A stretch of 64,000 nucleotides of DNA from the human T2T-CHM13v2.0 reference genome, Homo sapiens, in assembly GCF_009914755.1 (NCBI RefSeq), contig NC_060934.1; one strand, given 5' to 3'. The position numbers and the translations under genes were made by a program. This document shows positions 5,246 through 38,884 of this stretch, one piece after another (within the stretch, counting starts at the first letter, position 1; the number at the start of each line of letters is the position of its first letter). The notes under the pieces were generated by a model that did not search any database, was not told the origin of the DNA, and saw only the letters and a program-made list of their open reading frames with translations.

Positions 5246-5414
5246 GATTTTACAAGGTATGTTTCATAACTTTAAAGAAAAAAACATTTTTCTTCCTTAT
5301 CCAAATGTAACTTTAGTAATTTAGTGAATGTAAACCCCATTCATTTTTTTGTATCTTTTCCATGTGTGAATGCAGGTATATATCGAAGAATAATAATTAC
5401 TCGCTGCTTTATCC

Positions 5415-5420
5415 TTTATT
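5415..5420 (-). terminator. Candidate AATAAA polyadenylation signal for the minus-strand unit (alternative at 5816-5821)
   Basis: tttatt on + strand downstream of the CPHX-like last exon; motif only. Confidence 0.35.
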
Positions 5421-6859
5421 TTCATGATTATCATATTATCAAACTACTCAATAACTCGATTTTTTACAAACAGTATGTCCGAGAACACTCACACAATTAC
5501 ACAGATCTAGGCCTTTTTTTTTTAAGCTGTCCTAGCTTCTTACATTATATGATGTGTCTTCTTTGGGCTCAGTGTTCTATAAGAATGTCCAAGAGTTTGT
5601 CTATGAGACACATCCAGTAACAGAATTGCTGGGCATCTATGACTTCAATAAATATTCCAATTGGCTGTCCAAAGTGATAGTGCAAATCACACTCATCACC
5701 TGCATTGGAGAGTTGCTCTTTACCTATTCTCAATCTTATAGTAAGAGAAGGAAGATATTTACAAAATGAAGTATGTCTGCATGTTATATGACTTGGAAAT
5801 ATGTGCAAAACATGCTTTATTCTGCAAATTAGTATCACATGACACAATTGGTTAGAATGTAAATATGAAAAACATCATACAATGTAGAAGAAGGAAGGGG
5901 AAGGGGGAATGGGGAAAGGAAAGGCAAGGGAAGGGATTATCAAAGTCTTTACAATATAGATTATATGATGAGTTTAGAGTTTTCAGGACTGTAAATTCAG
6001 AGTGCGAGAATAAAAGACCAAGCTTTTGTTTGGTTACTCTCTGTATTGCTTAAACTATCATAACATACATCATTTTGTAATTAATTAAATATTGTCAAGA
6101 AAACAAAATGGAAATAACACAAATTCTATGCAGTGGATGTGTTTTACACAAAGCCCCGAGGGAACCCTGCAGTTCAGGAAATGTTGCTCCTCTAGAAGGC
6201 AGGCGCCACTATGTGAAAGGCGCCCCCTAGTGGGAGGGATGCAGCCTGAAGCGCTGCACAGGGCAGCATTGGCAGGACCCGCTCTAATGGACAGAACTCC
6301 AGAATACTTGAGAAGTGATTCCACATCCTGAAGCTCAAAATTATGAAAATTGTTTCAAAGTTTGGGGCTTTTTTCCAAACACTCAGGTCAACACAAGGCA
6401 TTCAACTTCTCGTCTGGGCACTCTCAGATCTTGTGGGCCCACGTCCAGAGGTGACTCAGTCAAAACACTGGTTCCAGGCAGCAGCTCTCAGTGAAGGGGG
6501 TGAGGAGGGGTCTGCACACCTGCTCCAGCACAGAAGCCCCCTGGGGCTCTTTACAGTGCAAAGCTGGGGCTGCAACTCCATCAGGAGTCCCTGTCTTCAA
6601 CGGAGAAGCCTCAGGTGATTCTATGCCTTAAGTGTATGCAGGCTAGGCTGATGTTGGGATGTCCTTCACAGTCAGAGCTTTGGTGGGCTGTCTGTGAAAG
6701 GACACATGGCTGCTGTTCCAGCAGGCCACACATCATGGCTGGAGATGCTGTCCCGGTCGATGGAGATGACAGCTTTGCTGTAGCCACCTTAGACACCCCT
6801 CCATACAAAGTCTGGGCAGTGGGGTCCTTCATATTCTTGTACTGCTTGTTAGGTATCTT

Positions 6860-7146
6860 TTTTTTTTTTTTTTTTTTTTTTTTTGAGATGGAGTCTCACT
6901 CTGTTGCCCAGGCTGGAGTGCAGTGGCGCAATCTCAGCTCACTGCAAGCTCTGCCTCCCGGGTTCAGGCCATTCTCCTGCCTCAGCCTCCCAAATAGTTG
7001 GGACTACAGGTGCCCGCCGCCACGGCTAGCTAATTTTTTTTTGTATTTTTTAGTAGAGACAGTGTTTCACCGTCTCTACTAAAGATCAAGGATGGTCTTG
7101 ATCTCCTGACCTGGTGATCCACCCACCTCAGCCTCCCACAGTGCTG
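6860..7146 (-). mobile_element. 5'-truncated AluY-like insertion with 14-bp TSD
   Basis: TSD ttgttaggtatctt at 6846-6859 and 7147-7160; diagnostic gcaagctctgcc/ccattctcc. Confidence 0.9.
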
Positions 7147-7529
7147 TTGTTAGGTATCTTCTAAGGAGGAGACAATGTCTGAGACAGGGACTGTGCAGAG
7201 CCTCTGTCTTCTGAAGCACAGATTGCTTTGGATTTGGCAACTGCTGTCATTTGGGGGTTGCCTTGCTTGCTGCCTTGGTGCTTGTTAGTTTTGTTCTCCA
7301 TACTCTAGCTCCACCTTCTCAGGACACTGCTGCCCTAACAGAAGAGACCAGCAGCTCACAGAGCCTTCCTGAGTTCAGCATCTTTATGTGCAAGCTCTGC
7401 AGAGCCCTTTTCCTCAGGCTTCTGTGTGGATGGTTGTGGGATGACCTGTGGATGATGCTCTCTGAAGCCTAGCACCATTTCCTAGAAACACAGTCCTGGT
7501 CCCAGCAGTAAACACTTGCAGACTTCTCA

Positions 7530-8341
7530 TCCAAGAGCTGCTGGATTTGGGAACTGGGTTGCTCTGCAGCCAGCTATGTTGCTGCATATCTTACCCAAGA
7601 GGCGTTTGTGGAGATCTGATCACTATTTGCAAAGGTGTGTGCCACAACTGAGAGCACAGGGACTCTCCATTACTTGGGAACATCAACCATGCTGCTGGGA
7701 CTGAAGGGAAAGTGCCTGCTTCCCTAAATCCTGTGACTCATATACATTAGAACCTGATCCTGGAAGACCAGCTTCTCCTGGTAATTCTGAGGCTGAGGCT
7801 GCTCATGATGACATTCCCAACCATTCTGCTGATGTCCTTGAAAGAGTCAGTAAAGAAAATAACCTTTCTGTTCCTCCTGCTGCTGCCTCTCTCCGTGCAC
7901 ACCATGAACACAGCACAAAGGGGAGGGCCTTGCATGCTGGCTTTCCCCCATCTCAGGCTTGTCCCTTTCAGAATACTGAGGAGGAGATGCAGAAGGATAA
8001 GGAAATAATGCTGATCTACATCGACAAGGGCCATTTTCTGTATCACCTGGATACTCCAAATCACAGCTTAGTTTCCTTTTAATCCATAAGGCTACAGTTA
8101 TTTGAGCCATCATGTTAATTGGGAGTCCCCTGTGTCTCCACGGAAGAGTGGCCAGCTCCACCCAGTAGAACTTCCTGGGTACAAGAAGTTCTGCTCAGGG
8201 TCATCATTGGGAGATTCCACCTGGTTTTCCTGGATTCTTGTAAATGGGTGGCCTTTGGCAGAGGAATCATGCAGTTCCCTGGCAGTGAACATTCTGTGTC
8301 TCTCTCTAAGTGGTGGTCTGGCTTTTATTTTGAAACCAGTT
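7530..8341 (-). pseudogene. CPHX-type homeobox pseudogene, last exon (homeodomain helix 3 NWFQNK plus Q-rich C-terminus)
   Basis: Acceptor tttctctttag|AAC TGG TTT CAA AAT AAA = NWFQNK. A 2-bp loss near 8322 gives TAG at 8306-8308; restoring it reads RARPPLRERHRMF. Downstream frames give ESQHARP, QQNGWECH..PQNY, DLGKQ, NGESLCSQL, PLG*DMQ and EQPSSQIQQL, all resembling human CPHXL as recalled. Multiple stops and frameshifts. Confidence 0.85.
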
Positions 8342-37595: not shown

Positions 37596-37858
37596 AACAT
37601 CTTTATCTTAAACCCAGAAAAGTGACAGAGGAGTGTCTCCCCTACAAGATGATGACCAGCCCTCCAGACCTGAGCCCAGGTGTGATTCCAAGGCCCCTGT
37701 ACTGGGGCCAGACAGGGAGACTCGCTCTCAGGGACTTCCCAACCAGCACCATCTTCTCCCTGCGGGGATGGCGAGGGAGCGCGGGCCGGCCCCGGCCCTG
37801 CCTCCGCGCTCGCGCTCGACGGTGTCCTGAAGCGCGCTCCCGGGGAGGTGTTGCAGCC

Positions 37859-37945
37859 ATGGCTACGGCAGCCGGCGCGACCTACTTTCAGCGAGGCAGT
37901 CTGTTCTGGTTCACAGTCATCACCCTCAGCTTTGGCTACTACACA
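37859..37945 (+). CDS. TMEM254: TMEM254 coding exon 1a (MATAAGATYFQRGSLFWFTVITLSFGYYT)
   Basis: Kozak gccATGg; 87 nt; donor |gtaagg; phase 0. Confidence 0.95.
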
Positions 37946-38184
37946 GTAAGGACAGCCGCTGGAGCGCTACGGTCTGACGAACGAGCGAGCGCTCGGTTCA
38001 CCCCAGGACCTGGGCTCACAGGCCGCGGGCCGGGGGAAGTCGTGCAAGCACAATCCCGACTCCCGCGCGCTAGGAGCGGAGGGGAGGGGACCAGACTCCG
38101 CAATGAGAGCAAGCATACTGGTCCGCCAGGGTCTTGGGCGGGCGCCCAGGGCCCTGAGAAACCGGCTAGCCAGGCTTTTCTTAT

Positions 38185-38343
38185 ATGGGGGCGGGGACGG
38201 CTGGGGAGCTCCCAGCCAACTCTGTGTCTGGGTTTTTCAAGAGGATGGTGAAGTCGGAGGCCAGCAATGCGGCTACCGCCTATTTCCGTCCAGCAAGACC
38301 CTTGCCCTCTCTGGTCACAGTCCTGGGGCTGGGCTACTTCGCG
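38185..38343 (+). CDS. TMEM254: TMEM254 alternative coding exon 1b (ATG at 38185 or 38245; ...MVKSEASNAATAYFRPARPLPSLVTVLGLGYFA)
   Basis: Open frame ending at a phase-0 donor GCG|gtgagg; joins exon 2 in frame to give 147 or 127 aa; ends GYFA, like GYYT of exon 1a. Confidence 0.75.
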
Positions 38344-38884
38344 GTGAGGCGTGGGGTGGGGCGGGGCGGGCCTCTGTTTTGGCCCGCCGGGCCCTCGTAG
38401 GGCGAGGGGAGCTCTGGGAACGGGGCCTGTGCGCACGCGCATCTGACGGTTGTCTCGGTTACTCATGTAAGCGGAAATTCGGTGGGCTCTTAGGATAGTT
38501 TCTGCTTTCTAGTGTTCCTGTCTTTGGGTCCTCACCTCTGCATGGTTACTAACGGGTTATCCGAGCCTAAGCCTCTCACGAAGCGGAAAGTCAAGTTAAC
38601 AGACTGCCATAGGCCTGCCAAGTCAGAATAGGGCTTCCGAAGCAGAATGTTTGAGCCAATAGGAATTGTTTGGAAAACGGGGATAAATCTAAAGGATGGG
38701 TAGGATTTAAGTGGTAAGGGAGGATAAAGAGGCTATAACTGTTCTGACATAGGTGTGGAAGCAAGAAGAAAGCTGTACCTAGAAAAAGAGCGACGTTTGT
38801 TTGGCTGAGAAATAATCTGTTTAAAGGATAATGAGAAAGATGCGTGGAAAAGTAGGTTGGGGGCTAAGGTGGTAATTTTGTGTT

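What the first reader, a model, noticed from the sequence alone, without database searches (positions are those of the whole stretch)
5390..38440. The TMEM254 antisense lncRNA may be a dead homeobox gene captured by a neighbouring CpG-island promoter
Seen: a chain of well-formed minus-strand exons leads from the CpG island toward the pseudogene: 33111-33230 (|gtgagt), 20002-20119, possibly a 24-nt exon at 17532-17555, 15099-15459, 12557-12747, then the 8341 terminal exon with AATAAA at 5816 or 5415. The homeobox splice sites are intact although the frame is broken. Established (recall): a divergent lncRNA, TMEM254-AS1, is annotated here. Inference: the lncRNA reuses the exons and poly(A) site of the lost CPHX gene, a protein-gene-to-lncRNA conversion of the kind known for XIST from Lnx3.
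Basis: partly seen in the sequence, partly recalled or inferred. Interest (0 to 1): 0.72.

Follow-up and report, generated by a model that had tools for sequence, protein, structure and literature searches.

The report
Dead CPHX homeobox gene inside TMEM254-AS1
The last two exons of the human non-coding RNA TMEM254-AS1 are the decayed homeobox exons of a lost CPHX-type gene, now transcribed from the neighbouring TMEM254 promoter; the link was already noted in print in 2010-2011, so this is a tidy but ordinary case.

Summary
TMEM254-AS1 exon 12557-12747 (-) encodes the first 46 residues of a homeodomain (Pfam). Terminal exon 5397-8341 opens with NWFQNK (helix 3). Both exons, intron pieces and about 870 nt of C-terminal coding sequence are collinear with the intact CPHX1/CPHX2 genes on chr16 at about 66% identity. 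The relic carries frameshifts and stops. Intron-2 donor and acceptor sit at the same positions as in CPHX1/2.

New here: a decayed copy of the CPHX2 promoter and first exon lies at 16395-16534 (-). Its ATG is lost and its donor is kept. It lies in a TMEM254-AS1 intron and no RefSeq model uses it. The RNA starts 22 kb further upstream in the only real CpG island (37551-38650). Exon 15099-15309 is exonised ancestral intron.

Not shown: reuse of the ancestral poly(A) site. The exons proposed at 33111-33230 and 17532-17555, and the acceptor at 15459, are not in RefSeq.

Leidenroth & Hewitt 2010 and Zhong & Holland 2011 already tie this transcript to CPHX. Verdict: real, correctly interpreted, already known; low interest.

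The parts
37551..38650 (.). CpG island shared by the TMEM254 start sites and the TMEM254-AS1 start site
   Evidence: GC >= 0.55 and CpG o/e >= 0.65 in 300-bp windows. It is the only such stretch in 1-40000 apart from 19201-19500, which I read as an Alu but did not check.
37886..38352 (-). TMEM254-AS1 exon 1 (RefSeq NR_027428.1). It overlaps TMEM254 exon 1 (37824-37945, +) head to head. It is divergent from the alternative TMEM254 first exons that begin at 38404 and 38439.
   Evidence: Hub annotation table; donor GAAA|gtaggt.
19976..20119 (-). TMEM254-AS1 exon 2, with an alternative donor giving 20002-20119. Single copy, with no detectable counterpart at the chr16 CPHX loci or in the 52 kb of chr10 upstream of the window.
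   Evidence: Canonical AG/GT. The genome search finds only itself. Best local score against the paralogous loci is 17, equal to the shuffle maximum of 17.
16395..16534 (-). Relic of the ancestral CPHX promoter and first exon (CPHX2 type). The TATA-like box is degraded, the ATG position no longer reads ATG, and the donor GTGAGT is kept at 16427-16422. It lies inside the TMEM254-AS1 intron between exons 2 and 3 and is in no RefSeq model.
   Evidence: Local alignment to chr16 81725245-81725389 scores 38. None of 300 shuffles reached that (maximum 20). It is the top one of 74 two-kb tiles of the window on both strands; the next best scores 15. 94 of 151 positions are identical. The chr16 site is fixed by the published CPHX2 forward cloning primer, one mismatch.
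15502..15588 (-). TMEM254-AS1 exon 3. Single copy, with no convincing paralogous counterpart.
   Evidence: Canonical AG/GT. The genome search finds only itself. The best score of 20 against a shuffle maximum of 18 falls at a non-collinear chr16 site.
15099..15309 (-). TMEM254-AS1 exon 4. Its 5' part (15180-15307) is homologous to intron 1 of chr16 CPHX2, so it is exonised ancestral intron.
   Evidence: Score 39 against a shuffle maximum of 17, collinear at chr16 81723913-81724039. Where the window has CAG|AG, chr16 has CTG, and the donor is not conserved.
12557..12747 (-). TMEM254-AS1 exon 5, which is CPHX exon 2: homeodomain residues 1-46. A 1-nt deletion near homeodomain position 38 leads to TAA at 12564-12562.
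   Evidence: Pfam PF00046 at E 2.3e-5, 24.6 bits against a cut-off of 22.9, profile positions 6-36 of 57. Alignment to CPHX1/2 exon 2. Donor at the same position as in CPHX1/2.
7469..8341 (-). Coding relic of CPHX exon 3: homeodomain helix 3 (NWFQNK) plus the whole C-terminal region.
   Evidence: 549 of 834 aligned positions (65.8%) match CPHX2 exon 3. There are 14 internal indel events, 8 of them frame-shifting. The first is a 2-nt deletion at 8324 in helix 3. Stops in the CPHX2-guided frame fall at 8117, 7849, 7685 and 7593.
5397..8341 (-). TMEM254-AS1 terminal exon (2945 nt). It holds the exon-3 relic, an Alu at about 6851-7146, and 3' sequence. That 3' sequence is still homologous to the flank downstream of chr16 CPHX1, down to about window 6281.
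   Evidence: Hub table.
5415..5420 (-). AATAAA, 18 nt upstream of the RefSeq 3' end. A second AATAAA lies at 5816-5821.
   Evidence: No chr16 counterpart was found.

Best explanation
Window 6.3-16.5 kb (- strand) holds the corpse of a three-exon, single-homeobox CPHX-family gene. By position next to TMEM254 it is the counterpart of mouse Cphx1. Its TATA-type promoter and first exon are dead and unused. Transcription that starts in the TMEM254 CpG island at 38352 runs antisense. It picks up three newer exons; one of them is exonised former CPHX intron and two have no paralogous counterpart. It then splices into the still-strong acceptor of CPHX exon 2, across the original CPHX intron 2, into exon 3. 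It ends at an AATAAA about 2 kb past the old stop codon. The product is a 4-kb non-coding RNA, that is, a transcribed pseudogene with a swapped promoter.

Shown: the homology, the disablements, the splice positions and the bypassed first exon. Inferred: the order of events (gene death, then or meanwhile promoter capture). Also inferred: that the RNA is a by-product of CpG-island transcription plus surviving splice signals rather than a selected function.
For: Homeodomain hit in exon 12557-12747. The only exact WFQN-coding match in the window is at 8327-8338 (-).

The best genome-wide paralogue of the homeobox exon is chr16 81717676-81717879, E 4e-5. Chr16 holds two intact copies there. The published cloning primers identify them as CPHX2 and CPHX1.

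Unique, collinear, same-strand DNA matches run from window 6281 to 16534 against these loci. They cover intron pieces and the full exon-3 coding region.

Intron-2 donor and acceptor are at identical positions. All six RefSeq exons have AG/GT borders.

The spliced NR_027428.1 has no ATG ORF longer than 102 aa. The homeodomain frame has a stop three codons before exon 5 and no ATG between.

The start site lies in the CpG island (hub table).

[quoted passage not shown] LOC219347 as putative human CPHX, and two 10q22.3 Cphx-like loci with frameshifts in helix 3 classed as pseudogenes, in PMC3141429. CPHX1/2 expression confined to cleavage-stage embryos in PMC4944136 and PMC5094009. By contrast TMEM254-AS1 appears in 19 papers, most of whose titles concern adult tissues or tumours (search listing only).
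Against: No other mammal's genome could be searched. Orthology to mouse Cphx1 and the timing of gene death against promoter use therefore rest on published synteny, not on a test here.

A database search with the relic homeobox exon returned nothing.

The exon-1 relic is a single 140-nt alignment at 62% identity. It is absent from the CPHX1 locus and from the second chr10 relic.

Wilming et al. 2015 (PMC4584094) argued that the chr10 loci are DUX pseudogenes and that human has no CPHX.

Reuse of the poly(A) site is not supported.

The exon table comes from the hub, not from a tool call. That ENSG00000230091 and LOC219347 are TMEM254-AS1 is my recall. Support comes only from position: LOC219347 is the gene next to SFTPD.
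Confidence: 0.8

Rival explanations
1. No capture: the ancestral TMEM254-adjacent CPHX gene already had a distal alternative promoter in the TMEM254 CpG island. The lncRNA simply continues that old transcript after the ORF decayed.
For: It cannot be excluded with one genome. Exon 4 is built from sequence that already existed in the ancestral intron. Madissoon et al. report several CPHX2 splice variants.
Against: The cloned 5' ends of CPHX1 and CPHX2 lie 7.4-7.9 kb upstream of the homeobox exon; a TATAAA box lies upstream of the cloned CPHX1 5' end, and a TATATTTAAA stretch upstream of CPHX2 exon 1. The window keeps a relic of exactly that CPHX2-type first exon. Exons 2 and 3 have no counterpart at the chr16 loci. 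The exon-4 acceptor AG is absent in chr16.
Confidence: 0.12
2. The relic is a DUXBL/DUX-type pseudogene, not CPHX (Wilming et al. 2015).
For: PMC4584094 states that the chr10 'CPHXR' loci resemble Duxbl more than mouse Cphx. DUX and CPHX homeodomains are related. A chrY hit at E 7.3e-4, which I took to be DUX-like but did not verify, is the third genome-wide match.
Against: The homeobox exon scores higher with the second chr10 relic (1.8e-8), CPHX1 (1.8e-6) and CPHX2 (2.6e-5). It scores lower with two further homeobox-like hits lying between CPHX1 and CPHX2, where DUXB is published to lie (1e-4, 2e-3); I did not identify these independently. It also scores lower with a DUXBL-like hit on chr10 (6e-3). 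About 870 nt of non-homeobox C-terminal coding sequence, intron pieces and the first exon are collinear with CPHX1/2. Only one homeobox is present, whereas DUX genes have two.
Confidence: 0.03
3. The RNA is still translated into a truncated homeodomain or other small protein.
For: The spliced RNA has ATG ORFs of 102, 95 and 88 aa.
Against: None of them is in the homeodomain frame. That frame has a stop three codons upstream of exon 5, no ATG, a frameshift, and TAA at 12564-12562. RefSeq files the gene as lncRNA (hub table).
Confidence: 0.03

Closest known systems
Human CPHXL/CPHXL2 (CPHX1/CPHX2) at 16q23.1
   Same: Same exon plan: a short first exon, a homeobox split at position 46/47, and a long C-terminal exon. 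The intron-2 splice positions are the same. DNA homology is collinear over about 10 kb.
   Different: The chr16 genes have open frames (331-332 codons in exon 3). They are reported as expressed only around the 8-cell stage. The window copy is about 34% diverged, frameshifted, stop-ridden and driven from another promoter.
Mouse Cphx1-3 next to Tmem254 and Duxbl (chr14)
   Same: Same neighbourhood (Anxa11-Plac9-Tmem254-Cphx-Duxbl) according to PMC4584094, PMC3141429 and PMC13558733. A DUXBL-like homeobox hit lies 23 kb beyond the window.
   Different: The mouse genes are intact and triplicated. No mouse sequence could be compared here. Published homeodomain identity is at most 35 of 60 residues.
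XIST from Lnx3, JPX from Uspl, FTX from Wave4-type conversions; transcribed unitary pseudogenes
   Same: The exons and splice junctions of a dead protein-coding gene persist in a spliced, polyadenylated non-coding RNA (Hezroni 2017, passages).
   Different: No function is known for TMEM254-AS1. Paralogues on chr16 still encode the protein. The promoter is borrowed from a neighbouring gene. TMEM254 and CPHX do not appear in the main text of Hezroni 2017; its supplements could not be opened.
Antisense or bidirectional CpG-island promoter lncRNAs
   Same: The start site lies inside the neighbour's CpG island, 52-87 bp from the alternative TMEM254 first exons and head to head with the main one (hub table).
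   Different: Most such RNAs are short and poorly spliced. This one runs 33 kb and is spliced into six exons because it meets the surviving splice sites of a dead gene.

Membership tests
Homeodomain (Pfam PF00046) | Profile match above the curated cut-off | tested here: met
   24.6 bits against a cut-off of 22.9, E 2.3e-5, profile positions 6-36 of 57, in exon 12557-12747.
Homeodomain (Pfam PF00046) | Helix 3 with the WFQN core, contiguous and in frame | tested here: not met
   NWFQNK is present at 8341-8324. It is out of frame with exon 2 because of a 1-nt deletion. It is followed by a 2-nt deletion at 8324 and an early stop.
CPHX / CPHXL family | Single PRD-like homeobox split by an intron at homeodomain position 46/47 | tested here: met
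   The donor follows ...VID/VIN and the acceptor precedes NWFQN, at the same positions in the window, CPHX1 and CPHX2.
CPHX / CPHXL family | Homology outside the homeobox (C-terminal region, first exon) | tested here: met
   Exon 3 is 549/834 identical to CPHX2. tblastn matches aa 266-323 at E 7e-7. Exon-1 relic.
CPHX / CPHXL family | Open reading frame | tested here: not met
   At least 9 frameshifting indels (1 in exon 2, 8 in exon 3), at least 4 premature stops, and the start codon lost. This is a pseudogene of the family, not a functional member.
CPHX / CPHXL family | Orthology with mouse Cphx1 (synteny with Tmem254 and Duxbl) | not testable with these tools
   Only published synteny is available. 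No mouse or other mammalian genome is on hand.
DUX family | Two homeoboxes in one gene | tested here: not met
   There is one homeobox only. The rest of the unit is collinear with single-homeobox CPHX1/2.
lncRNA derived from a dead protein-coding gene (XIST/Lnx3 kind) | lncRNA exons coincide with relic coding exons and reuse their splice junctions | tested here: met
   RefSeq exons 12557-12747 and 5397-8341 (hub table) against the CPHX1/2 exon borders.
lncRNA derived from a dead protein-coding gene (XIST/Lnx3 kind) | The RNA has a function of its own | not tested
   The 19 papers naming TMEM254-AS1 were seen as a search listing only. By their titles most are expression or prognostic-signature studies.

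The most novel reading that the evidence does not exclude
TMEM254-AS1 is a true gene-to-lncRNA conversion under selection. On this reading the splice sites of the dead CPHX exons 2 and 3 survived about 34% sequence divergence because the spliced antisense RNA, or the act of transcribing through the TMEM254 promoter, regulates TMEM254 or the neighbouring DUXBL/CPHX relic domain. The bypassed first-exon relic would mark the moment of promoter replacement. That would make the locus a datable, paralogue-controlled example of how a promoter swap rescues a dying gene as RNA.
Probability: 0.1. Interest if true: 0.55.

Novelty: already known. Interest (0 to 1): 0.25.

Why it matters
The locus is a clean, paralogue-calibrated example of how a dead gene's splice signals can be recruited by transcription from a neighbour's CpG island to give a long spliced lncRNA. 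It also helps settle a disagreement in the homeobox literature. For this locus the chr10 relic is CPHX-type, not DUX-type. It warns against reading regulatory meaning into TMEM254-AS1 in the many expression-signature papers. It opens no long-standing question.

Tried and rejected
1. Raw blastn of the window against chr16 was swamped by Alu hits. I replaced it with a filter that keeps only matches of low depth on both sides.
2. The CPHX1 first exon and TATA region have no counterpart in window 13-26 kb: score 14, reached by 97 of 300 shuffles. CPHX1 and CPHX2 first exons do not align convincingly with each other.
3. The search for homologous proteins with the relic homeobox exon (longer proteins) returned 20 candidates, none at E <= 0.01. 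No non-human comparators were obtained.
4. A tblastn with a chrY open frame intended as a DUX probe picked the wrong frame and found nothing. It was replaced.
5. scan_promoters_terminators on 16300-16700 is a bacterial sigma-70 scan and is irrelevant to a human promoter. It found 0 sites and carries no weight.
6. Exons 2 and 3 of the lncRNA were tested for paralogous counterparts and none was convincing. They are not high-copy repeats at the sensitivity.
7. I searched for poly(A)-site homology downstream of CPHX1 and CPHX2. The chain ends near window 6281, with one weak 47-nt hit at 5503-5549 (E 0.001), and the hexamers do not correspond.
I could not see the predicted CPHX sequences in the supplementary text of PMC4944136, its supplementary figures, or the Hezroni 2017 supplementary tables. 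These could bear on the CPHX exon-2 acceptor and on whether this lncRNA was already listed as a fossil.
9. Paper searches: 'TMEM254-AS1' gave 19 papers, none on its origin by title or abstract. 'Cphx'+'Tmem254' gave 3. 'LOC219347' gave 3. 'ENSG00000230091' gave 1.
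Full report
**What was claimed.** On that view the lncRNA TMEM254-AS1 reuses the exons and poly(A) site of a lost CPHX gene.

**Check of the observation.**
- The hub's RefSeq table gives NR_027428.1 as 37886-38352, 19976-20119 (alternative 20002-20119), 15502-15588, 15099-15309, 12557-12747 and 5397-8341.
- All six exons have canonical AG/GT borders.
The RefSeq end at 5397 is 18 nt past the second signal.
I could not consult GENCODE or read data.
- The CpG island is real (37551-38650).
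- By the table the lncRNA start (38352) overlaps the main TMEM254 first exon head to head. It is divergent only from the alternative TMEM254 first exons at 38404 and 38439.

**The homeobox.**
- The open frame across 12562-12789 (-) matches Pfam Homeodomain above the curated cut-off (E 2.3e-5, profile positions 6-36 of 57).
- The terminal exon begins AAC TGG TTT CAA AAT AAA, which reads NWFQNK. This is the only exact match in the window to a WFQN-coding pattern. Nine matches with up to one mismatch were found, against 5.1 expected.
- The two halves are out of frame. In the exon-2 frame a TAA follows at 12564-12562. In the exon-3 frame a TAG comes 11 codons in.

**What family it belongs to.**
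- The window's own assembly could be searched. The relic's best paralogue is chr16 81717676-81717879 (E 4e-5), ahead of a chrY hit at 7.3e-4 that I took to be DUX-like but did not verify.
- A reciprocal search finds two intact chr16 copies 49 kb apart. It also finds a second broken copy on chr10, 42 kb below the window.
- The published CPHX1 and CPHX2 cloning primers (PMC4944136, Table 1) map to these two chr16 copies. That identifies them and fixes their first exons 7.4-7.9 kb upstream of the homeobox exon.
- After repeats were filtered out, window and chr16 share a collinear, same-strand chain of unique matches from window 6281 to 13812. It covers the downstream flank, all of exon 3, intron pieces and exon 2.
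- Exon 3 aligns over the whole 331-332-codon coding region of CPHX2 and CPHX1. Identity is 549 of 834 positions (65.8%). There are 14 internal indel events, 8 of them frame-shifting.
- The first of these is a 2-nt deletion at 8324 inside helix 3. Stops in the CPHX2-guided frame fall at 8117, 7849, 7685 and 7593.
- Exon 2 carries a 1-nt deletion near homeodomain position 38.
- The intron-2 donor and acceptor sit at exactly the CPHX1/2 positions.
- For the exon-2 acceptor, the window uses an AG that is invariant in all four human copies. CPHX1/2 have a further AG 9 nt downstream, also frame-compatible, that the window lacks. Without the cDNAs I cannot say which one the intact genes use.

**CPHX or DUX?** Wilming et al. 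2015 held that the chr10 loci are DUX pseudogenes. For this locus the data say otherwise.
- The homeobox exon scores best with the second chr10 relic, CPHX1 and CPHX2.
- It scores lower with two further homeobox-like hits between CPHX1 and CPHX2. DUXB is published to lie there, but I did not identify the hits independently.
- It also scores lower with a DUXBL-like hit on chr10.
- The non-homeobox parts are collinear with single-homeobox CPHX genes.

**The old promoter.**
- The CPHX2 promoter and first exon (161 nt) align to a single place in the window, 16395-16534 (-). The local score is 38. None of 300 shuffles reached it (maximum 20). It is the top one of 74 two-kb tiles on both strands, the next scoring 15. 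94 of 151 positions are identical.
- The site is collinear with the rest of the chain. It keeps the GTGAGT donor, has no ATG at the start-codon position, and has a degraded TATA-like box.
- It lies in the intron between lncRNA exons 2 and 3, and no RefSeq model uses it.
- The CPHX1-type first exon has no counterpart here; 97 of 300 shuffles reach its score.

**The lncRNA's own 5' exons.**
- Exon 4 (15180-15307 of 15099-15309) is homologous to CPHX2 intron 1, about 1.2 kb below its first exon (score 39 against a shuffle maximum of 17).
- The acceptor AG of exon 4 reads CTG on chr16, and its donor is not conserved. Exon 4 is therefore exonised ancestral intron.
- Exons 2 and 3 are single copy in the genome. 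They have no convincing counterpart at the paralogous loci.

**Coding potential.** The spliced 4045-nt RNA has no ATG ORF above 102 aa, and none in the homeodomain frame.

**What is not shown.**
- Poly(A) reuse. Homology to the CPHX1 downstream flank ends near window 6281, with one weak hit at 5503-5549. Neither AATAAA aligns with a chr16 hexamer. I also do not know the 3' ends of the intact genes.
- The order of events and the orthology to mouse Cphx1. These rest on published synteny, because no other mammalian genome was available and a protein database search found nothing.

**Prior knowledge.**
- Zhong & Holland 2011 (passages) report that LOC219347 on chr10 had been called the putative human CPHX. 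They describe the two 10q22.3 Cphx-like loci as truncated, with frameshifts in helix 3, and class them as pseudogenes.
- That these identifiers are today's TMEM254-AS1 is my recall. It is supported by position: LOC219347 is the gene next to SFTPD (hub table).
- Under the current symbol, none of the 19 papers found discusses the RNA's origin (listing only). The main text of Hezroni 2017 on lncRNA fossils mentions neither TMEM254 nor CPHX.

**Verdict.** It is an instance of a known kind, and its essence was already recorded in print. The increments here are the bypassed first-exon relic, the exonised intron, and the CPHX-versus-DUX resolution for this locus.

Noticed in passing
outside the window: chr10 80868027-80868212 (-), i.e. 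window -41973..-41788 (locus L009/L025): A second CPHX-like homeobox exon with an in-frame TAA. It is the best match to the window's homeobox exon (E 1.8e-8). No exon-3 relic was detectable in the 52 kb upstream of the window.
   Followed up: partly
outside the window: chr10 80886998-80887063 (-), i.e. window -23002..-22937 (L026): A weak homeobox-like hit (E 6e-3) lies between the two chr10 CPHX relics. That is where the literature places the DUXBL pseudogene.
   Followed up: no
window 1-4909, also 1-713 and 1419-3103: About 90% identical to chr10 80894199-80899208, and 89-93% identical to 80901372-80903872. These are copies of the segmental repeat that carries the C1DP pseudogenes (hub table).
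   Followed up: no
chr16 81774696-81774860 (L023) against 81725245-81725389 (L006): CPHX1 and CPHX2 are about 92% identical in exon 3 but have unrelated first exons and promoters. Only the CPHX2 type is shared with the chr10 relic, so the CPHX1 5' end looks like a later replacement.
   Followed up: partly
window 55062-57957: 89-90% identical to chr16 81770632-81773573, inside CPHX1 intron 1, in two inverted pieces. It also matches several chr10 sites. It is probably a young interspersed repeat, not locus homology.
   Followed up: no
window 12738-12749: The exon-2 acceptor is ambiguous. The window's AG aligns with an AG invariant in all four copies, and the CCCAG found 9 nt downstream in CPHX1/2 reads CCCAT here.
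   Followed up: partly
PMC4944136, Methods against Table 1: The paper gives the 5'-end tag for CPHX2 as FE200082 in the Methods but FE200054 in Table 1, with the same coordinates. This is a minor inconsistency in the source.
   Followed up: no
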